DNA of 6,595 bases, taken from the NCBI GenBank assembly GCA_036845085.1, contig DAIUEN010000030.1, positions 1 through 6,595 on the forward strand, in the 5' to 3' direction. Positions 168 to 6,595 of this stretch are shown here, piece by piece. Source of the stretch: Candidatus Nanopusillus sp. (GTDB lineage Archaea; Nanobdellota; Nanobdellia; Nanobdellales; Nanobdellaceae). The notes under the pieces were generated by a model. That model was not told the origin of the DNA and did not search any database. It saw only the letters and a list, made by a program, of their open reading frames with translations. Made by a program: the position numbers and the translations under genes. Position 1 is the stretch's first letter, and the number at the start of each line of letters is the position of its first letter.

Positions 168-1157
168 ATGAAAATATCTTATAATGAAGAATTGTATATA
201 GAAAAAGAAGAATTATATATAAAAACAAGATTTAATAACGAAATTTACACAAGTATATTAGAAATTAGAAAAGATCCTATAACAGGATTTAAGGTAAGAA
301 TCAATAGAAACATAAAAAATAAGCCAAGAAATATAATAAATGAAAATATAGAAAATAATGAATGTATTTTTTGTAATCATGAAAAATATGTTACATCTTT
401 CTTTGATTTTGAAAAAATTTATAATAGCAATAGTGTTTTATTTGCCAATAAATACCCTTATAGTGAATATCATGGAGTTGTTTTGTTAAATTATAATAAA
501 CATAATGAAAATTTTTCAGATATAAGTTTGCTTGATTTATATAATTCTTTAGAATTAATAAGAGAATTTTATAATAAAATATTTGAGAAAAATAATGAAT
601 ATAATATTTTATTTATCAATTTAAATAAAGGTTTTTCTGCTGGTGCATCTCAAAGACATTTACATTTCCAAATATTAGTTGAAAAAGAACCAACAAATTA
701 TTATAAAATATATTTAAATAAATGCAAAAGATATTTTGAAAAATATAGGAAATTTTTCATAGAAGATTATTTTTTATTTGAAAAGAAATTAAATGAAAGA
801 ATTATATATGATGATATAATAAAATTATGGAGTAATTTTGCTCCTTTTAGAAATAATGAGATTATAGGGTATTTTGATACATTTGGTTTATTCTTTTTAA
901 ATCAAAACAAATTTGAAGATTTGGTAAGTAAATTGTATAAGATACTAGTTCTATACGAAAAATTATATAACGAATTTAATTTAACAATATTGGATACTAC
1001 AAATCTAAAAGAATCCAGAACATTCCCATTTATTAGAATTGCTCAAAGAAATAAAAATGATATTGGATATATGGAAATATTTCATATTGAACCGGTGATA
1101 TCTTCAATACCTGAAGAAACTTCTAAAGAAATAAAAGAAAAATTGTCTAATCAATAA
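168..1157 (+). CDS. Galactose-1-phosphate uridylyltransferase-like nucleotidyltransferase (HIT superfamily, GalT branch)
   Basis: 329-aa ORF. It has an N-terminal CxxC (ECIFCNHEK) like the GalT zinc site CPFC. NKYPYSEYHGVVLL resembles the GalT/HIT 'NK(F/Y)P...H-hydrophobic' strand. NLNKGFSAGASQRHLHFQIL matches the GalT active-site block 'ENKG...G.S..HxHxQ'. Length is typical of GalT-family enzymes. Substrate cannot be inferred (UDP-hexose, ADP-glucose phosphorylase or ApnA phosphorylase types share these motifs). Confidence 0.75.
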   Translation: MKISYNEELYIEKEELYIKTRFNNEIYTSILEIRKDPITGFKVRINRNIKNKPRNIINENIENNECIFCNHEKYVTSFFDFEKIYNSNSVLFANKYPYSEYHGVVLLNYNKHNENFSDISLLDLYNSLELIREFYNKIFEKNNEYNILFINLNKGFSAGASQRHLHFQILVEKEPTNYYKIYLNKCKRYFEKYRKFFIEDYFLFEKKLNERIIYDDIIKLWSNFAPFRNNEIIGYFDTFGLFFLNQNKFEDLVSKLYKILVLYEKLYNEFNLTILDTTNLKESRTFPFIRIAQRNKNDIGYMEIFHIEPVISSIPEETSKEIKEKLSNQ

Positions 1158-1168
1158 AAACATTTATA

Positions 1169-1537
1169 ATGAATGAAAAATCCTTTATCCATATGGCATT
1201 ACTAGTTGCAAGAAAATATACGTTAATATTTATTTTAAATGGGAAAATTATTAAAGATGAAAAAGAATTTATAAATTATTTAAAAAAAGAATTTGCTGGA
1301 AAGAATCCAAAGGTCATAAAAATAGTTATTGATAAATTGAGATTATTAGAGGAAAACCCATTTAAATATTCTAGGGAAAAGCTTAAAGAATATGACAAAT
1401 ATATTATATGTTCTATAGAAGTAACTGGAGATTTGAGAATATTATATGCAATAGATAAAAAAATGCCAATTGTTTATATATTAGGAGTTGGAAATCATAA
1501 AGAAATTTATGGAAAAATTCTGAAAAAAATAATATAA
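1169..1537 (+). CDS. RelE/ParE-superfamily toxin-like protein with an atypically long N-terminus
   Basis: The C-terminal half, KVIKIVIDKLRLLEENPFKYSREKLKEYDKYIICSIEVTGDLRILYAIDKKMPIVYILGVGNHKEIYGK, follows the RelE/ParE pattern: helix ending 'ENPF', '...G(D)(Y/L)RI(I/L)Y.I....' strand, '(I/V).IL.(I/V)G.H(R/K)..(I/V)Y'. At 122 aa it exceeds the usual ~85-95 aa. An in-frame ATG at 1193 (114 aa) lies ~24 nt downstream of a TATA-like TTTATAAT (1163-1170), so it could be a leaderless start. It begins 11 nt after the GalT-like stop. Confidence 0.55.
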   Translation: MNEKSFIHMALLVARKYTLIFILNGKIIKDEKEFINYLKKEFAGKNPKVIKIVIDKLRLLEENPFKYSREKLKEYDKYIICSIEVTGDLRILYAIDKKMPIVYILGVGNHKEIYGKILKKII

Positions 1538-2881: not shown

Positions 2882-2907
2882 AAATTCGGTAATTCCGATC
2901 TTTCATC

Positions 2908-2915
2908 TTTAATAA
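2908..2915 (-). promoter_or_regulatory. TATA-like box (TTATTAAA on the minus strand) upstream of asnS
   Basis: Sits in the 85-nt divergent intergenic region, with 26 nt between the box and the asnS ATG (2881). Low specificity in AT-rich DNA. Confidence 0.25.
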
Positions 2916-2930
2916 GTATTGTTACTAATA

Positions 2931-2940
2931 TTTATAAATA
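2931..2940 (+). promoter_or_regulatory. TATA box (TTTATAAATA) for the tRNA gene
   Basis: This is the best TATA consensus in the intergenic region, and 26 nt separate its 3' end from tRNA position +1 (G2967). That predicts a transcription start at or only a few nt upstream of the mature 5' end. Confidence 0.45.
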
Positions 2941-2966
2941 GTGTTAGATGATTATCTGATAATAAA

Positions 2967-3038
2967 GGGACCGTAGTCTAGGGGTATGATGCCGCCCTGA
3001 CTAGGCGGAGGTCCGGGGTTCGAATCCCCGCGGTCCCA
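2967..3038 (+). tRNA. tRNA-Val (anticodon GAC), no encoded CCA, no intron
   Basis: Hand-folded cloverleaf. Acceptor GGGACCG/CGGTCCC (7 bp). D-arm GTCT-AGGGGTA-TGAT with A14, G18G19 and A21. Anticodon stem CCGCC/GGCGG with loop C-T-GAC-T-A (U33 present, anticodon at 2999-3001). Variable loop AGGTC. T-arm CGGGG-TTCGAAT-CCCCG. Discriminator A73. 72 nt and 48/72 G+C, against an AT-rich background. Confidence 0.88.
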
Positions 3039-3040
3039 TC

Positions 3041-3048
3041 TTTATATG
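3041..3048 (+). promoter_or_regulatory. TATA-like box (TTTATATG) for the 3071 CDS
   Basis: It starts 3 nt after the tRNA 3' end, with 22 nt between the box and ATG 3071. This is the same spacing as the other putative leaderless units in the window. Confidence 0.35.
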
Positions 3049-3053
3049 TTTTC

Positions 3054-3067
3054 CTACTAATTAGTAG
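3054..3067. promoter_or_regulatory. Perfect 14-nt palindrome CTACTAATTAGTAG (candidate operator over the predicted transcription start)
   Basis: The sequence equals its own reverse complement (7+7, no spacer). It lies between the TATA-like box (3041-3048) and ATG 3071, the classic position for an archaeal repressor site. The genes immediately downstream encode winged-helix-like proteins. Confidence 0.4.
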
Positions 3068-3070
3068 TTT

Positions 3071-3826
3071 ATGAGCAAAAATTTAGATTCAATTATCATA
3101 AAATCTTTAATAGAATCTTATAATGAAAAAAAGCCCATACTTGAAAAAATTGTTGAACAAGACTCGGCTTTAAGTTTAATTTATAATAGAGGTAATTCTA
3201 ATTTTCCAAATGTATTGAGATGTATGTATAAATTGGGAATTATTAAATCTACAAATTTAGGTATTATTTTAACAGATTTAGGACATAAAATTAGAGATAA
3301 ATTATATAAAGAAATAGAAATATTAAGATCTAATATTTATCATGTTGAAAATAAAAGTTTTAATCCTATAGAAGTTGAAAGATATTTATACAAAGTAATA
3401 AGAGCAACAAAATTTGTAGAAAATTATGAAAATTATGCTCCACCATGTAGGTTACCTATTTCTTTTAAAGTAATATATAAGACAATTTCTGATAATGAAT
3501 ACAGAGATCCTTTGACATATTTATTTATTGGTAGAAGTGGATGTATATTATTGTTATTATATTATGCGGAATTAGAATGTACACGTTGTATAAACTGGAA
3601 GTTTAGTAAAAAATATATGAATGAATTATTGAAAGTTTATGGAGATATTGAAATAATTAAAAGACCTTATGAAGATAACTTATTATCCTATGGATTGATA
3701 TCTAAATATTCAAGAAAAAATATTAGAAATAGAAAAGTAAAATATACATTGACTTCATTTGGAAGAGAGATAGCTAAATGGATTCTATATAATTTTAGAG
3801 CCTTAGATTATGGTAAAAAGATATAA
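3071..3826 (+). CDS. Uncharacterised protein with two winged-helix-like segments (paralog A)
   Basis: 251-aa ORF with an ATG start. Two segments show the wHTH-like pattern 'hydrophobic helix - G(L/I)I - basic turn - (K)YxLTxxGxxI': VLRCMYKLGIIKSTNLGIILTDLGHKIRDKL, and LLSYGLISKYSRKNIRNRKVKYTLTSFGREIAKWI. It shares several colinear motifs with the next ORF. No named family recognised. Confidence 0.7.
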   Translation: MSKNLDSIIIKSLIESYNEKKPILEKIVEQDSALSLIYNRGNSNFPNVLRCMYKLGIIKSTNLGIILTDLGHKIRDKLYKEIEILRSNIYHVENKSFNPIEVERYLYKVIRATKFVENYENYAPPCRLPISFKVIYKTISDNEYRDPLTYLFIGRSGCILLLLYYAELECTRCINWKFSKKYMNELLKVYGDIEIIKRPYEDNLLSYGLISKYSRKNIRNRKVKYTLTSFGREIAKWILYNFRALDYGKKI

Positions 3827-3831
3827 TATAA

Positions 3832-3850
3832 AAGTTTTTTAAGTTTTTTT
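3832..3850 (+). terminator. Tandem AAGTTTTTT / AAGTTTTTTT motif (oligo-T tracts) between the two paralogs
   Basis: Two adjacent copies sit 6 nt after the 3071-3826 stop. T6 and T7 runs on the coding strand are the usual archaeal intrinsic termination or pause signal. They could equally be plain AT-rich spacer. Confidence 0.3.
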
Positions 3851-3866
3851 GTTACATAACAGTAGT

Positions 3867-4481
3867 ATGGCTATTAAAAAAAGAAACTTGCTAGAACAAT
3901 TAATAGAATCTGCAATAATTGGTGAACCAGTAGTATCTGTAATACATAATAATCCTAGATACAAATTTATTAATAAGGATATAAAAAATCTAGATAAAGA
4001 AATTGAAACTGTTACTGAATTTTTAGAATTTGGTAAAAAACTAAGAATAGAAGATAAATTACAAATTGCTTATTATTCTCTTAAATCTTTTTCAGAATAC
4101 TTATTAAGATCAGAAAATTATAGAAGATTAAGTTTATCAGATATTTTAAATAGAGAAGGTCCATTTACAGTTAAAATTCTTTCATTATATGGAAAGTATA
4201 TAGCTATTCTACTACCTATGTATATAATAGATTTGGAATGCCAATTAAGTAGGAAATGTATAAACTATTGTCCAACTTCTAGCAGAATAAGAAACGAATT
4301 AAAAAATTACGGTTTTAAAGATTTCCATTTATCAAAAGGTAACTTAAAATTGTTAATGGAATATAAATTTATTAAAAGATGTAATGATAGTTCTAATCCA
4401 AAATATACATTAACAAATCTTGGTAGAATTGTTTCAGAAAGTATTTCTGAACAAATATATGCATCTATACATGGTATCTAA
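3867..4481 (+). CDS. Uncharacterised winged-helix-like protein (paralog B)
   Basis: The ORF-track start at 3849 is a TTG. The first ATG is 3867 (MAIKKRN...), giving 204 aa. Motifs colinear with paralog A (A vs B): KSLIESYNEKKPILEKI vs EQLIESAIIGEPVVSVI; ENY; AELECTRCINW vs IDLECQLSRKCINY; MNELLKVYG vs RNELKNYG; VKYTLTSFGREIA vs PKYTLTNLGRIVS. Confidence 0.7.
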   Translation: MAIKKRNLLEQLIESAIIGEPVVSVIHNNPRYKFINKDIKNLDKEIETVTEFLEFGKKLRIEDKLQIAYYSLKSFSEYLLRSENYRRLSLSDILNREGPFTVKILSLYGKYIAILLPMYIIDLECQLSRKCINYCPTSSRIRNELKNYGFKDFHLSKGNLKLLMEYKFIKRCNDSSNPKYTLTNLGRIVSESISEQIYASIHGI

Positions 4482-4950
4482 TAATTTACTAGATGAAAAA
4501 TATTTGGAAAATTATCTTAAGCAAAAGGGTATAAAATTCGAAATTATAAAATATGATAAACCAGTAATGTCTGCAAATGATGCTGAAGAATATACAGATG
4601 GTATTGTAGCCAAAAGTATTTTATTAATCTGTGATGATAAACCTTTATTATGTTTTTTACTCGGGAAAGATAAGATTGACCTAGAAAAAATTAAGAAATA
4701 TTTTGGATGTAATAATGTTAGATTAGCCAAGGCTAAAGAAGTAAAAAATATTACAGGATATGATATAGGAGCTGTTCCACCAATAGGACACAAACAAAGC
4801 ATTAAAACAATTGTTGATAAAAAAGTTCTTGAATTAAAAGATGATAAAATAATTTATTGTGGTGGAGGATCTCATTATCACTTATTAAAAATATCTAAAA
4901 AAGATCTATTAAGTATTATGGAATATGATATATATGACATTACCCTCTAA
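4471..4950 (+). CDS. YbaK/ProX/EbsC-family aminoacyl-tRNA trans-editing deacylase
   Basis: The ORF-track start at 4420 is a TTG. ATGs at 4459 and 4471 are more likely; 4471 gives 159 aa (MVSNNLLDEKYLENYLKQ...). Family pattern: N-terminal 'L...gi.fe...' substrate-domain start, the conserved Lys context (VAKSILL), 'ITGYDIGAVPPIGH' (YbaK 'tG...GgvsP.G' loop), and a C-terminal 'GGGS....L'. Size is typical (~155-165 aa). Substrate specificity not assignable. Confidence 0.8.
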   Translation: MVSNNLLDEKYLENYLKQKGIKFEIIKYDKPVMSANDAEEYTDGIVAKSILLICDDKPLLCFLLGKDKIDLEKIKKYFGCNNVRLAKAKEVKNITGYDIGAVPPIGHKQSIKTIVDKKVLELKDDKIIYCGGGSHYHLLKISKKDLLSIMEYDIYDITL

Positions 4951-5128
4951 ATTTAGCAACTAATGGTAAAACTCCCCTTTCATATTCTATCATTGCTATT
5001 TTTATAGGATCATATCTTATTTTTTCTAGCTCTTCTTTTGATAGCTTTACCATTAATGGTGCACCCATAGAAATTTGCAATGCTCTAGCAGCTATTAATC
5101 TTGCAATAGCAAATCTAGATTCATTCAT
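4940..5128 (-). CDS. rpoK: DNA-directed RNA polymerase subunit K (Rpo6, omega/RPB6 homolog)
   Basis: 62 aa. SRFAIARLIAARALQISMGAPLMV is the signature RPB6/RpoK block ('(T)RFE.AR(I/L)I(G/A)ARALQIS.GAP'), followed by DPIKIAMIEYERGVLPL ('DP..IA..E...G.(I/L)P'). The start ATG overlaps the rrp42 stop (ATGA, 5125-5128). Confidence 0.88.
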   Translation of the reverse strand: MNESRFAIARLIAARALQISMGAPLMVKLSKEELEKIRYDPIKIAMIEYERGVLPLVAKFRG

Positions 5129-5913
5129 CTTATTTTTTCTAATAAATAATTTTTAAATCTTTCAGCTTGTTCTGTCAAAAACATAAATTCTTCTAAAGAT
5201 ATTTTACCAGATCTCCTAGTTTGTAATGCATGTATTTTATCTGTAATTCCTATATGTATAATCATATCTGCAGCATCTTCTTCATATTTATTTGGATCAA
5301 CTATAAATTTATCATCAATTTTTGCGAAAGTAACCATGACTGGTATATTTTTATTTAGAGGTATATTTTCTGTCTTAACTTTTGGATCTATTTTGTATTT
5401 ATCTACAACTTTTTCCAACTTTGGTAATTTTGCATTTAATAGAGAACATACTGCTGCTAATACAGATGCATCAATTATATTTCCATCATCATCTAAAACA
5501 TATATATCTATAAATGTAGTCCATACATATTTTCCAGGTTCTATTACCAATTTTTTTAAGTCTATAAAACGAGATTCTCTTATAATTCTATCAACAATTC
5601 TAGAATATTCTATAGATAAATCAGATGGTCCTGGATCTATTGTTGGAAATGCCATAGGAGATAATTCAACATTTGTTATAAATATTCCTTCATCAGGTTT
5701 GTCTTCAAATGGTTCTCCAATCTCAAATTTTATCCCAGCTAAAACCTTAGTATTACCAAACTCTACATAGCAAGAACCTTCAGCATTTTTTATAAAATTT
5801 TTTATTATCTTTATTGGTCTATATTCCATTAGTTTCCTCCGATCAATTCTTAACTCATCTTTTATTATTTCTCTTACATAGTTTATAATACTATCTCTTA
5901 CACCAAGATCCAT
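5125..5913 (-). CDS. rrp42: Exosome complex component Rrp42 (RNase PH-like, non-catalytic subunit)
   Basis: 262 aa. It is colinear with archaeal Rrp42 as recalled from Sulfolobus/Pyrococcus: R(I)D(R)RKLMEYRPIKI..., AEGSCYVEFGNTKVLAGIKFEIGEPFEDKPDEGIFITNVELSPMAFPTIDPGPSD...IEYSRIVDRIIRES...DLKKLVIEPGKYVWTTFIDIYVLDDDGNIIDASVLAAV. The 'EIGEPF.D.PDEG' and 'EPGP(P/S)D' blocks distinguish Rrp42 from Rrp41. Confidence 0.88.
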   Translation of the reverse strand: MDLGVRDSIINYVREIIKDELRIDRRKLMEYRPIKIIKNFIKNAEGSCYVEFGNTKVLAGIKFEIGEPFEDKPDEGIFITNVELSPMAFPTIDPGPSDLSIEYSRIVDRIIRESRFIDLKKLVIEPGKYVWTTFIDIYVLDDDGNIIDASVLAAVCSLLNAKLPKLEKVVDKYKIDPKVKTENIPLNKNIPVMVTFAKIDDKFIVDPNKYEEDAADMIIHIGITDKIHALQTRRSGKISLEEFMFLTEQAERFKNYLLEKIR

Positions 5914-6033: not shown

Positions 6034-6595
6034 TTACTGGACTTTTACTAAGCTTGGTGCAGATGTTTTAACTCCTTTTATTTGTACTACTGCAGCATTA
6101 TCTAATTGTGCTGCATTTAATCCTGTTAATAGATATTGTGCAAATAATACTGTTGCTTGTGTTGTATCATCTCCCTCCCATCCGAATATTACTAGTGAAT
6201 TTGGATATACATTTGTTCTCATTATTACTGCATTACCACTTCCAAAGTCTTGTCCTGTAACACTTCTCCATACTGGTGCTATTTGACTTCCATATAGATA
6301 TCCATTTTGTTGTGCTTTTAATGCTGCTAATTCTTGTGAGTTCAAGAATGATACTACAGCTTCAGCTGCTAATTTGTTTATTGCTGGTCCACCAACAATT
6401 ATTAAGTTACTCATTCCTGATGTTACTTGAGAATCCAATATTACTTTTCCAACCAATGATACTGGTCTATCTTGTTGTACTGTTACAGTTACTGTTTGTT
6501 GAGATGTTGTTGTTTGTTGTGGTCTGTATTCTCTTGGTGCTAGTCCAACATCAATTCTTAATGCTTCTGCTGGTGCATATACAGATAATGTCTTT
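6034..6595 (-). CDS. S-layer-type surface protein, C-terminal part (5'-truncated by the window edge)
   Basis: The ORF-track start (6456) is a TTG. I translated the frame upstream by hand and it stays open to nt 6594 (...KTLSVYAPAEALRIDVGLAPREYRPQQTTTSQQTVTVTVQQDRPVS-LVGKVILD...). NLIIVGGPAINKLAAEAV and SLVIFGWEGDDTTQATVLFAQYL resemble the archaeal S-layer C-terminal domain blocks as I recall them ('N(L)I(L)VGGP.(V)N.L(T/A)' and '(V)(V)AG(W/Y)...DT..A...(L)A'). Composition is A/V/Q/T/S/G/N-rich and K/E/I-poor, very unlike the other CDSs. Confidence 0.55.
   Translation of the reverse strand, partial: KTLSVYAPAEALRIDVGLAPREYRPQQTTTSQQTVTVTVQQDRPVSLVGKVILDSQVTSGMSNLIIVGGPAINKLAAEAVVSFLNSQELAALKAQQNGYLYGSQIAPVWRSVTGQDFGSGNAVIMRTNVYPNSLVIFGWEGDDTTQATVLFAQYLLTGLNAAQLDNAAVVQIKGVKTSAPSLVKVQ

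What the first reader, a model, noticed from the sequence alone, without database searches (positions are those of the whole stretch)
3071..4481. Tandem pair of divergent paralogs (winged-helix-like, Cys-motif) with no recognisable family, directly 3' of a tRNA gene
Two adjacent same-strand ORFs (251 aa and 204 aa) share at least five colinear motifs. These are LIES-x-(E/G)(K/E)P near the N-terminus, ENY, LEC-x(2-6)-CIN(W/Y), NEL(L)K-x-YG, and KYTLT-x-(F/L)GR-x-(I/V). The rest is highly diverged, so this is an old tandem duplication that has been retained. The C-terminal 'G(L)I...KYTLTxxGRxI' block looks like a winged-helix recognition helix plus wing. Paralog A carries an extra N-terminal copy of that fold signature. 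Paralog B has four clustered Cys (ECQLSRKCINYC ... RC) where paralog A has C-x2-C, hinting at a metal site retained in only one copy. I recognise no named family. The N-terminal 'LIE(S/A)...(G)EP(V)' faintly recalls the start of ScpB-type tandem winged-helix proteins, but that is a weak impression. A paired, asymmetric paralog set suggests a heterodimeric DNA- or RNA-binding module specific to this lineage.
Basis: partly seen in the sequence, partly recalled or inferred. Interest (0 to 1): 0.7.

Follow-up and report, generated by a model that had tools for sequence, protein, structure and literature searches.

The report
Fast-evolving double winged-helix gene array
Two neighbouring genes in a hot-spring nanoarchaeon (close to Candidatus Nanobsidianus) are real, diverged copies of one small family of probable DNA-binding proteins that occurs only in this genus, always at this spot, and changes far faster than the genes around it; this is moderately interesting, because the building blocks are ordinary winged-helix domains.

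Summary
A (3071-3826, 251 aa) and B (3867-4481, 204 aa) are true paralogs: BLASTP E 7e-6, and none of 2000 shuffles reached their Smith-Waterman score. A starts 32 nt after tRNA-Val(GAC). No curated Pfam, NCBIfam, PADLOC or PDB family is reached. A full HMMER scan of 1.8 billion cluster representatives found only four further clusters.

All 17 other contigs I recovered are Nanobsidianus-like and share one locus: tRNA-Val | array | YbaK-like deacylase | RpoK. The array holds 0, 1, 2 or 3 paralogs, which fall into three subtypes here called A-, B- and C-type. It also carries deletion remnants, a fragmented extra copy and frameshifts. This is birth-and-death evolution, not a fixed obligate pair.

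The AlphaFold2 model of A (pLDDT 81, pTM 0.84) shows two winged helix-turn-helix modules joined by a helical linker. Each module is followed by a long helix. The nearest relatives, all weak, are Sso10a/HTH_45, PadR/RosR, MarR and SSV1 F-93. Window B has lost the first module.

Flanking proteins are 65-91% identical between strains. A is 26-31% identical and B about 32-36%. dN/dS is 0.3-1.0 against 0.05-0.3 for the flanks.

Most likely these are dimeric DNA-binding regulators or architectural proteins, expressed in a leaderless operon with the deacylase, possibly autoregulated through a conserved CTAC-N6-GTAG palindrome. It is a new variant of a known kind.

The parts
2967..3038 (+). tRNA-Val(GAC). 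It forms the fixed left border of the variable array in every Nanobsidianus-like locus.
   Evidence: ARAGORN and Rfam RF00005 at 62.9 bits. The same tRNA lies upstream of the array in L004, L005, L030-L034, L037 and L038-L049.
3041..3047 (+). TATA-like box (TTTATAT), about 27 nt upstream of A's ATG. This is the spacing of a promoter for a leaderless mRNA. That it is a promoter is inferred.
   Evidence: The sequence was read. TTTATAA/T lies directly after the tRNA in all 20 loci, always about 24-27 nt before an ATG. Promoter function was not tested.
3054..3067 (+). Perfect 14-bp palindrome CTACTAATTAGTAG between the TATA-like box and A's start codon. It is a candidate operator.
   Evidence: It is the only CTAC-N6-GTAG in the window (0.01 expected). 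The same arms occur at the same position, once per locus, in 15 of 20 loci. They are absent in the array-free L005, in Nst1, and in L034, L043 and L044.
3071..3826 (+). Paralog A (A-type, 251 aa, pI 9.5). It has two winged-helix modules joined by a helical linker.
   Evidence: ORF. AlphaFold2 model with pLDDT 80.7 and pTM 0.84. A-type homologs are 26-31% identical.
3137..3346 (+). A, first winged-helix module (residues 23-67) and the long helix after it (69-92). It is Sso10a/HTH_45-like.
   Evidence: Secondary structure. Pfam HTH_45 is sub-threshold at residues 43-82 and is found in 9 of 10 family members. The N-half profile hits Sso10a (1r7j) at E 0.0038.
3578..3589 (+). A, Cys pair C170-x2-C173 at the end of the conserved hydrophobic helix, followed by invariant N175.
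   Evidence: These are invariant or near-invariant columns. In L037_3 both Cys are missing, and in L037_1 the first is missing.
3608..3823 (+). A, second winged-helix module (residues 180-227, wing ending in KYTLT) and the long C-terminal helix (229-250).
   Evidence: Secondary structure. The C-half profile hits RosR (a PadR-like protein) at E 0.027, plus QsrR, Sso10a-2 and MarR. hhalign of the N-half against the C-half gives E 1.7e-5.
3867..4481 (+). Paralog B (B-type, 204 aa). This copy has lost the first winged-helix module by an internal deletion.
   Evidence: ORF. Alignment to full-length B-type proteins. In the model, residues 1-46 fall below pLDDT 50, while residues 108-204 score about 80-87.
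4239..4259 (+). B, Cys pair C125-x5-C131. C135 lies 4 residues further on.
   Evidence: C125, C131 and N133 are invariant columns.
4278..4478 (+). B, winged-helix module (residues 138-182) and the long C-terminal helix (184-202).
   Evidence: Model. Foldseek hits SSV1 F-93, AF1382, a MarR-like protein (3lfk), STIV F93, Sso10a-2 and AspA with probability 0.96-1.0 but E of 0.1 or more.
4471..4950 (+). YbaK/ProX-type trans-editing deacylase. Its start overlaps B's last 11 nt, so it is probably co-transcribed with A and B.
   Evidence: Pfam tRNA_edit at E 1.4e-24 and NCBIfam YbaK_EbsC at E 5e-17, below the curated cut-off. The gene call is and the overlap was read. It follows the array in every locus.

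Best explanation
A and B belong to a small, genus-restricted family of double winged-helix proteins that is evolving by birth and death.

Architecture. Each full-length member carries:
- an N-terminal Sso10a/HTH_45-like winged helix-turn-helix with a long helix after it;
- a helical linker ending in a conserved hydrophobic helix and a Cys pair;
- a second PadR/MarR/F-93-like winged helix-turn-helix with a long C-terminal helix.

Proposed function (inferred). The proteins bind DNA through the winged-helix modules. They dimerise, with themselves or with a paralog, through the terminal helices, as Sso10a, F-93 and PadR do. They act as transcription regulators or small architectural DNA-binding proteins.

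Expression (inferred). The array sits behind a TATA-like box placed directly after tRNA-Val, at leaderless-mRNA spacing. It is packed tightly against the YbaK-like deacylase, and B overlaps that gene by 11 nt, so A, B and the deacylase probably form one transcription unit. The CTAC-N6-GTAG palindrome between the TATA-like box and the start codon is the most likely binding site, which would make the operon autorepressed.

What is shown and what is inferred. Shown: paralogy, fold content, restricted distribution, fixed locus, copy-number variation, decay remnants and the rate excess. Inferred: DNA binding, dimerisation, operon structure and operator use.

Dispensability. The array is absent in one strain. 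It is diverging under weak constraint or diversifying pressure, and whole alleles have been replaced.
For: Paralogy:
- BLASTP E 7e-6.
- Smith-Waterman z 6.9, and none of 2000 shuffles reached the score.

Fold:
- Model of A has pLDDT 80.7 and pTM 0.84, with two helix-helix-helix-hairpin units, each followed by a helix of more than 20 residues.
- Model of B is confident only for the C-terminal unit.
- Foldseek finds no whole-chain match. It finds local matches with probability up to 1.0 to ZitR, MepR, PadR and LmrR, and to SSV1 F-93, AF1382, Sso10a-2, AspA and a MarR-like protein.
- Profile searches: N-half against Sso10a E 0.0038; C-half against RosR E 0.027.
- HTH_45 is sub-threshold in 9 of 10 members. 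DUF4364, EarA and HVO_A0261_N hit the second module.
- hhalign of the N-half against the C-half gives E 1.7e-5.

Distribution:
- Only four further 50%-identity clusters among 1.84 billion representatives.
- No relative found in IMG/VR by pattern scan. No tblastn match in the phage or plasmid collections.
- The first genome-collection scan, a pattern scan with protein A, found no relative. A second scan with the neighbouring aaRS brought in the Nst1 locus (L004), which does carry an A-type gene.

Synteny and copy number:
-.
- Decay remnants: the C-type 5' remnant and the B-type C-terminus 'LQTYIAHYLI*' in Nst1.

Rates:
- Window against L031, protein identity: aaRS 91%, deacylase 78%, A 31%, B 32%.
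- L030 against L031, dN/dS: flanks 0.05-0.14, A 0.29, B 0.75.
- L031 against L034, protein identity: aaRS 97.6%, A 61%, B 43%.
- Codon differences at identical residues, Nst1 against L031: A 0.38, flanks 0.05-0.19.

Promoter and palindrome.
Against: - No winged-helix HMM reaches its curated cut-off. All Foldseek E-values are 0.017 or higher, so the assignment to particular winged-helix families is weak.
- Winged helices also bind RNA and proteins. Nothing here demonstrates DNA binding.
- The wing of several B-type proteins is acidic (GEFGDG), and B-type pI ranges from 5.8 to 9.5. That is unusual for a DNA-contacting wing.
- The palindrome is only 4+4 bp in most strains. It lies in a segment conserved as a whole among close strains. 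It is missing in L034, L043 and L044, which still carry A and B.
- dN/dS of 0.66-1.0 for B, and for the most diverged A pairs, is compatible with near-neutral decay.
- Frameshifts and a complete deletion show the genes are dispensable.
- Operon structure rests on gene spacing only.
Confidence: 0.55

Rival explanations
1. The array is cargo left by an integrated virus, plasmid or other mobile element that targeted the 3' side of tRNA-Val. On this view A and B are element-derived winged-helix regulators, like SSV1 F-93 or the pNOB8 protein AspA, now decaying in the host chromosome.
For: - The array lies directly 3' of a tRNA gene.
- It varies between 0 and 3 copies among close strains.
- The A alleles are older than their flanks, which implies replacement.
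- The best local fold matches include proteins of archaeal viruses and plasmids: F-93, STIV F93 and AspA, plus SSV and rod-shaped-virus winged-helix proteins.
- Other Nanopusillaceae carry different small lineage-specific ORFs in the same interval.
Against: - No integrase, no duplicated tRNA 3' end and no att-like direct repeat.
- No relative found in IMG/VR by pattern scan, and no tblastn match in the phage collection or the plasmid collection.
- Every occurrence is at this one chromosomal locus, with identical flanks.
- Base composition does not differ from the neighbouring genes.
- Copy-number differences are explained by internal deletions that leave in-place remnants, not by clean excision.
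Confidence: 0.15
2. The proteins are not DNA-binding regulators. They would be winged-helix scaffolds that bind RNA or protein, for example accessory subunits that present tRNA to, or regulate, the YbaK-like deacylase encoded directly downstream.
For: - The link to the deacylase is invariant, and B overlaps it by 11 nt.
- The family and this deacylase are both missing from this interval in YN1, Nanobdella and the KM4331 MAGs.
- The deacylase nearly reaches Pfam AprA_N (26.9 bits against a cut-off of 27). One family member weakly touches WH_AprA (E 0.07). This hints at a protein family that fuses a YbaK-like domain with a winged-helix domain.
- Some B-type wings are acidic.
Against: - L005 keeps an intact deacylase fused directly to the promoter with no array, so the deacylase does not need these proteins.
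- A conserved enzyme (75-80% identical) is unlikely to need partners that are only 26-36% identical.
- The WH_AprA hit is not significant.
- The closest profile and fold matches are DNA binders.
Confidence: 0.12
3. The array is functionless. It would be a set of decaying duplicate genes on their way to loss in a shrinking symbiont genome, and the fast evolution would simply be neutral drift.
For: - dN/dS is 0.66-1.0 for B and for the most diverged A pairs.
- There is a complete deletion in L005, a B remnant in Nst1, C-type remnants, a fragmented third copy in L040 and L041, and frameshifts in L030, L046 and L049.
- The window's B has lost a domain.
Against: - ORFs of 245-275 codons stay intact in more than 12 lineages at about 23% GC, where roughly 1 codon in 11 would be a stop by chance, even though protein divergence reaches 40-70%.
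- dN/dS for A in the closest pair is 0.29.
- A set of core positions is invariant across all three subtypes.
- AlphaFold2 gives a confident fold from only 10 sequences.
Confidence: 0.1

Closest known systems
Sso10a / Pfam HTH_45 (PF14947): small archaeal winged-helix proteins with a C-terminal coiled-coil helix (PDB 1r7j, 4hw0)
   Same: - The first module of the family gives HTH_45 hits in 9 of 10 members, at 17-23 bits.
- The N-half profile finds Sso10a at E 0.0038.
- Sso10a-2 is among the Foldseek hits for the C-terminal module, with TM-target 0.63 and probability 0.97.
- The layout is the same: a winged helix followed by one long helix, which in Sso10a forms the dimer.
   Different: - All scores are below the Pfam cut-off of 25.5 bits.
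- Sso10a is about 95 aa with one module. This family is about 250 aa with two modules, a roughly 90-residue helical linker and a Cys pair.
- The family is restricted to one genus and evolves very fast, unlike a chromatin protein.
PadR-like regulators (for example RosR of Halobacterium, PDB 6qfd/6ez1; Pfam DUF4364)
   Same: - The second module carries the PadR-type signature: a recognition helix ending in G-L-I/V, then a wing with (R/K)-Y-x-L-T-x-x-G.
- The C-half profile hits RosR at E 0.027.
- Foldseek hits PadR proteins 4esb, 5zi8 and LmrR at probability 0.92-0.97.
   Different: - No PadR or DUF4364 HMM passes its threshold.
- PadR proteins have one N-terminal module and a C-terminal dimerisation helix. 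Here the PadR-like module is C-terminal and preceded by another winged helix.
MarR family and MarR-like viral proteins (ZitR, MepR; SSV1 F-93, STIV F93)
   Same: These are the best local structural matches: ZitR, MepR and MarR at probability 0.8-0.99, and F-93, AF1382 and 3lfk at probability 0.99-1.0. All share helices flanking a winged helix.
   Different: - Foldseek E-values are 0.1-0.7, and TM-scores normalised to the query are about 0.3, so only one module matches.
- No MarR HMM hit.
- MarR proteins are homodimers with one module per chain.
   Same: Both have two winged-helix domains in one chain and a short N-terminal helix with a hydrophobic-Glu-Ser/Ala pattern.
   Different: - No SMC_ScpB HMM hit at E of 1 or less in any member.
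- Foldseek to ScpB gives probability 0.23-0.33 at rmsd 14-18 Å.
- In ScpB the two domains are adjacent. Here they are about 110 residues apart.
- No ScpA or SMC gene lies nearby.

Membership tests
ScpB (PF04079) | Match to the SMC_ScpB profile | tested here: not met
   No hit at E of 1 or less for A, B or the 10 other members scanned.
ScpB (PF04079) | Two directly adjacent winged-helix domains superposable on ScpB structures | tested here: not met
   Foldseek against 4i98_C gives probability 0.33 and rmsd 14.5 Å. Against 6juv_A it gives probability 0.23 and rmsd 18 Å. The two modules are separated by residues 93-179.
ScpB (PF04079) | Genomic or physical partnership with ScpA and SMC | tested here: not met
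   No ScpA or SMC gene occurs in the window or in any of the 17 related contigs. Physical interaction could not be tested.
Sso10a / HTH_45 (PF14947) | Score at or above the Pfam gathering cut-off (25.5 bits) | tested here: not met
   The best score is 23.1 bits (P0010). A scores 17.7 bits. Nine of 10 members hit below threshold.
Sso10a / HTH_45 (PF14947) | A winged helix followed by a long helix, with detectable sequence relationship to Sso10a | tested here: inconclusive
   The N-half profile hits 1r7j at E 0.0038. The topology agrees. The evidence is weak and covers one module only.
PadR family | Match to the PadR or PadR-like profiles | tested here: not met
   No PadR hit. DUF4364 reaches 14.6-20.8 bits against a cut-off of 26.9.
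PadR family | Recognition helix and wing signature, with structural similarity | tested here: inconclusive
   The C-half profile hits RosR at E 0.027. Foldseek to PadR structures gives probability 0.92-0.97 but E of about 0.5.
MarR family | Match to the MarR, MarR_2 or HTH_27 profiles and a single-module chain of about 140-150 aa | tested here: not met
   No MarR-type HMM hit. The chain is 250 aa with two modules. Only local fold similarity is seen.
Known anti-phage defence proteins (PADLOC) | Significant match to a defence-system component | tested here: not met
   A and B have no hits. Other members touch only the winged-helix parts of the CARF3, LmuC and WH_III-A models (best E 1.2e-6, covering 50 of 222 model positions).
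Integrated mobile element at a tRNA gene | Integrase gene, a duplicated tRNA 3' segment (att), and relatives on viruses or plasmids | tested here: not met
   No integrase ORF. No tRNA-derived direct repeat. No relative found in IMG/VR by pattern scan, and no tblastn match in the phage or plasmid collections.
Winged helix-turn-helix DNA-binding proteins (fold class) | Three-helix bundle plus beta-hairpin wing | tested here: met
   The AlphaFold2 model of A shows this twice: H23-30, H32-39, H46-54, E58-61, E64-67; and H180-189, H194-197, H201-206, E210-213, E224-227. The model of B shows it once. Foldseek probability is up to 1.0 to solved winged-helix proteins.
Winged helix-turn-helix DNA-binding proteins (fold class) | Actual DNA binding | not testable with these tools
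   This needs EMSA, footprinting or ChIP.

The most novel reading that the evidence does not exclude
The array would be a strain-specific, cassette-swapping specificity module of an obligate ectosymbiont. Its rapidly diversifying double winged-helix proteins would recognise foreign or partner DNA, for example to exclude viruses or competing nanoarchaeal strains, or to act on the host after transfer. The extreme divergence, ancient alleles and copy-number turnover would then reflect an arms race rather than decay.
Probability: 0.08. Interest if true: 0.75.

Novelty: new variant of a known kind. Interest (0 to 1): 0.42.

Why it matters
Nanoarchaeota have some of the smallest cellular genomes and very few recognisable regulators. 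This finding defines an unannotated protein family that combines four features:
- a new two-module winged-helix architecture;
- restriction to one genus and one chromosomal site;
- tandem birth-and-death turnover (0 to 3 copies, remnants, fragments);
- divergence several-fold beyond that of the flanking genes, with alleles older than the surrounding genome.

That marks a recombination and turnover hotspot next to tRNA-Val in a genome usually described as streamlined and static. It also gives a concrete, testable candidate for strain-level regulatory or interaction differences among co-occurring hot-spring nanoarchaea. If the proteins are ordinary autoregulators, the interest is mainly evolutionary: how fast lineage-specific regulators turn over in reduced genomes.

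Tried and rejected
- Direct family assignment. Pfam, NCBIfam, PADLOC, PHROGs and PDB sequence searches gave nothing above threshold. The WKF hit and the GET3 hits to A residues 166-207 are short, compositionally driven and not shared by other members, so I rejected them.
- k-mer indexed homolog searches with A and B found only the proteins themselves. Pattern-based genome scanning with A found nothing. Relatives came only from the full HMMER scan, from synteny via the aaRS and from a profile search.
- Mobile-element signatures. No att-like repeat. No viral or plasmid relatives.
- Alignment A3 was too diverse for locus scanning. A B-type-only alignment worked.
- Literature. The Jarett 2018 single-cell study (PMC6142677) reports elevated non-synonymous SNP density in hypothetical and surface proteins, but my term search of its text found no mention of this family. 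The strain it shares with my comparison, AB-777-F03, lacks the array.
- Searches for 'AprA', to understand the Pfam AprA_N and WH_AprA models, returned only unrelated uses of the word.
- ScpB, ORC/Cdc6, Pol III C82 and TFIIH p52 appear among the Foldseek hits, but with probability 0.33 or less and rmsd above 14 Å. I rejected them.
- A Zn or Fe-S site as a defining feature is rejected. The Cys pair is absent in L037_3 and incomplete in L037_1.
Full report
**Setting.** The window is very AT-rich (18-33% GC). It encodes, in order:
- a HIT/GalT-like protein (168-1157, +);
- a RelE/ParE-like ORF (1169-1537, +);
- a class IIb Asp/Asn-type aminoacyl-tRNA synthetase (aaRS; 1541-2881, -);
- tRNA-Val(GAC) (2967-3038, +);
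- the two ORFs of the finding, A (3071-3826, +) and B (3867-4481, +);
- a YbaK/ProX-type deacylase (4471-4950, +);
- RpoK (4940-5128, -);
- an RNase PH-type exosome subunit (Rrp42-like; 5125-5913, -);
- the C-terminal part of an S-layer protein.

The synthetase is 90-92% identical to those of two Candidatus Nanobsidianus stetteri assemblies and 76-84% identical to those of other Nanopusillaceae. The organism is therefore a nanoarchaeon near Nanobsidianus. The same contig occurs in three further assemblies.

- A and B align at BLASTP E 7e-6, with 29% identity over the C-terminal 103 residues.
- Their Smith-Waterman score of 83 was not reached by any of 2000 shuffles (mean 38.8, sd 6.4).
- The motifs ENY, LEC...CIN(W/Y), NEL(L)K.YG and KYTLT..GR are colinear.
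- The N-terminal 'LIES' match is uncertain, because the family alignment pairs B's copy with a different helix.
- No Pfam, NCBIfam, PADLOC or PDB-sequence family is reached at curated or significant thresholds.

**Finding relatives.**
- Word-indexed searches found only the proteins themselves.
- A full HMMER scan of 1.84 billion cluster representatives with the A+B profile found four more clusters. A profile search added four more proteins.
- Synteny gave the key result. In Nst1 (L004) a single 250-aa relative, 26% identical to A, sits between tRNA-Val and the deacylase. In strain AB-777_F03 (L005) the deacylase follows the tRNA directly, with no such gene.
- Contig look-ups and one metagenome scan gave 15 more contigs. 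All share the layout: coiled-coil ORF | tRNA-Val | array | deacylase | RpoK.
- YN1, Nanobdella aerobiophila and two KM4331 MAGs lack both the family and the deacylase in this interval. They carry other small ORFs there.
- No relative was found in IMG/VR by pattern scan. tblastn found no match in the phage and plasmid collections.

**Subtypes and turnover.** The family splits into three subtypes.
- A-type has C-x2-C-x-N-W. Members are window A, Nst1, P0004 and the first gene of most arrays.
- B-type has C-x5-6-C-x-N-Y and the C-terminal motif Q.YIAS.I. Members are window B, P0003 and P0005-P0010.
- C-type is the first gene of the three-gene array in L037.

The array carries many signs of decay.
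- Behind the promoter, most strains carry a short remnant of the C-type gene. In L032 this remnant is a 57-codon mini-ORF that keeps both ends of the gene.
- Nst1 carries the remnant 'LQTYIAHYLI*' of a B-type C-terminus.
- L040 and L041 hold a third B-like copy broken into two ORFs.
- L030, L046 and L049 show frameshifts.

The ancestral array therefore probably had at least three genes. It is being duplicated, fragmented and deleted independently in different strains. The A+B pair is common (15 of the 17 other contigs) but not obligate.

**Structure.**
- AlphaFold2 on a 10-sequence alignment gave a confident model of A (pLDDT 80.7, pTM 0.84).
- Its order of elements is: an N-terminal helix; winged helix 1 (residues 23-67); a 24-residue helix; a helical linker (99-169) ending in the conserved hydrophobic helix and the Cys pair C170/C173; winged helix 2 (180-227); and a 22-residue C-terminal helix.
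- Foldseek finds no whole-chain match in the PDB or BFVD (best E 0.3 and 0.017). It finds local matches to MarR, PadR and ZitR and to archaeal-virus winged-helix proteins.
- The model of B is confident only for residues 108-204. Its first 46 residues are disordered. Alignment shows that B lacks the first winged helix, which all other B-type proteins have.
- B's C-terminal module resembles SSV1 F-93, AF1382, STIV F93, Sso10a-2, AspA and a MarR-like protein, with probability 0.96-1.0, TM-target 0.54-0.75 and E of 0.1 or more.
- Half-protein profiles hit Sso10a (N-half, E 0.0038) and RosR, QsrR, Sso10a-2 and MarR (C-half, E 0.03-0.5).
- The two halves resemble each other over the recognition helix, the wing and the following helix (hhalign E 1.7e-5).
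- HTH_45 scores just below threshold in 9 of 10 members.
- ScpB is not supported.

**Cysteines.** The pair after the hydrophobic helix is near-universal, but it is fully absent in L037_3 and incomplete in L037_1. Full-length B-type proteins have a second pair that staples the wing of module 1 (KCSNNNYCKV). Window B's C135 and C172 are private to it. The cysteines are more likely structural staples (disulfide or metal) than a defining functional site.

**Rates.**
- Window against L031, protein identity: aaRS 91%, deacylase 78%, RpoK 71%, Rrp42-like 67%, A 31%, B 32%.
- Closest pair (L030 against L031, dS about 0.1), dN/dS: housekeeping flanks 0.05-0.14, A 0.29, B 0.75.
- L031 against L034: aaRS is 97.6% identical, A 61% and B 43%, with dN/dS 0.50 and 0.66.
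- Codon differences restricted to identical residues avoid alignment error. Between Nst1 and L031 they are 0.38 in A against 0.05-0.19 in five flanking genes. That is as high as between the window and L031.
- The A alleles are therefore older than the genomes around them. This implies differential retention of old paralogs or replacement by recombination, on top of weak constraint.
- Long intact ORFs in more than 12 lineages at this GC content, together with invariant core positions, argue against pure pseudogene decay.

**Expression signals (inferred).**
- Directly after the tRNA, all loci share TTTATAA/T, and about 24-27 nt further on an ATG. This is the spacing of a leaderless archaeal mRNA.
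- That ATG belongs to A in the window, to the C-type gene in L037, to its remnant in most strains, and to the deacylase itself in the array-free L005.
- Between the TATA-like box and the ATG lies CTAC-N6-GTAG. It is a perfect 14-bp palindrome in the window (3054-3067) and unique there (0.01 expected).
- The motif is present once, at this position, in 15 of 20 loci. It is lost in L004, L005, L034, L043 and L044. L043 and L044 have a different small palindrome at the same place.
- B overlaps the deacylase start by 11 nt.
- Together this suggests one transcription unit, with an operator at the transcription start.

**Conclusion.** The finding is real. It is a new, genus-restricted, fast-turning-over family of double winged-helix proteins, most likely dimeric DNA binders that regulate their own operon. 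The building blocks are ordinary. The architecture, the confinement to one locus and the evolutionary dynamics are the unusual parts. Function remains inferred.

Noticed in passing
window 1169-1537 (+): A RelE/ParE-type toxin-like ORF (Pfam ParE_toxin, E 6e-7). It starts 12 nt after the HIT/GalT-like gene and has no recognisable antitoxin ORF next to it. The related loci L030, L031 and L034 carry two other genes in this position instead: a 200-218 aa ORF and a 143-aa ORF that hits DUF7337 in L030 and L031.
   Followed up: partly
window 2882-2966, compared with L004 6243-6934, L031 5209-5900 and L034 8311-8978: Every other Nanobsidianus-like locus that spans the interval has an acylphosphatase gene and a fast-evolving K/E-rich coiled-coil ORF (121-136 aa) between the aaRS and tRNA-Val. 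The window has neither, only 85 nt of spacer.
   Followed up: partly
window 4471-4950 (+): The YbaK-like deacylase scores 26.9 bits on Pfam AprA_N (cut-off 27). One family member (P0005) weakly touches WH_AprA (E 0.07). This may hint at a protein family fusing a YbaK-like domain with a winged-helix domain. I could not find what AprA is.
   Followed up: partly
L040 2031-2393 and 2537-2803 (same arrangement in L041): A third B-like paralog lies between the A-type and B-type genes, broken into two ORFs. One carries winged helix 1 (120 aa) and the other winged helix 2 (88 aa). It is either a pseudogene or a split gene.
   Followed up: partly
L032 123-296 (also L045, L047, L048): A 57-codon mini-ORF lies behind the tRNA-proximal promoter. 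It keeps the N-terminus (MDNLD...) and the C-terminus (...YNITNEGKKFIL) of the C-type paralog, so it is an internal-deletion remnant.
   Followed up: partly
L004 4484-4950 (Nst1): The deacylase of Nst1 is split by a frameshift (tblastn gives two segments, and the ORF ends at 103 aa). This could be a real pseudogene or an assembly error.
   Followed up: no
L006 1932-2499, L009 2034-2360, L008 5929-6525: In other Nanopusillaceae, the interval between tRNA-Val and RpoK holds unrelated small lysine- and glutamate-rich ORFs. The 3' side of tRNA-Val looks like a general hotspot for lineage-specific genes.
   Followed up: partly
window 168-1157 (+); the 200-218 aa ORF at L031 2668-3288 and L034 5786-6388: Other genes nearby also evolve fast. 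The HIT/GalT-like protein is only 62% identical between the window and L031, against 91% for the aaRS. The 200-218 aa ORF is 55% identical between L031 and L034, with dN/dS 0.58.
   Followed up: partly
window 6034-6595 (-): This is the C-terminal part of a large S-layer protein; the reading frame continues upstream past the listed TTG start at 6456, beyond the window end. It has the highest GC in the window (0.33) and a Thr/Ser/Gln/Val-rich composition unlike the other genes.
   Followed up: no
window 3849-3866: Just upstream of B's ATG lies a small near-palindrome, GTTACATAAC, followed by AGTAGTATG. The AGTAGT-N-ATG string resembles the sequence before A's ATG (TTAGTAGTTTATG), so the duplication may have included the 5' region.
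   Followed up: no
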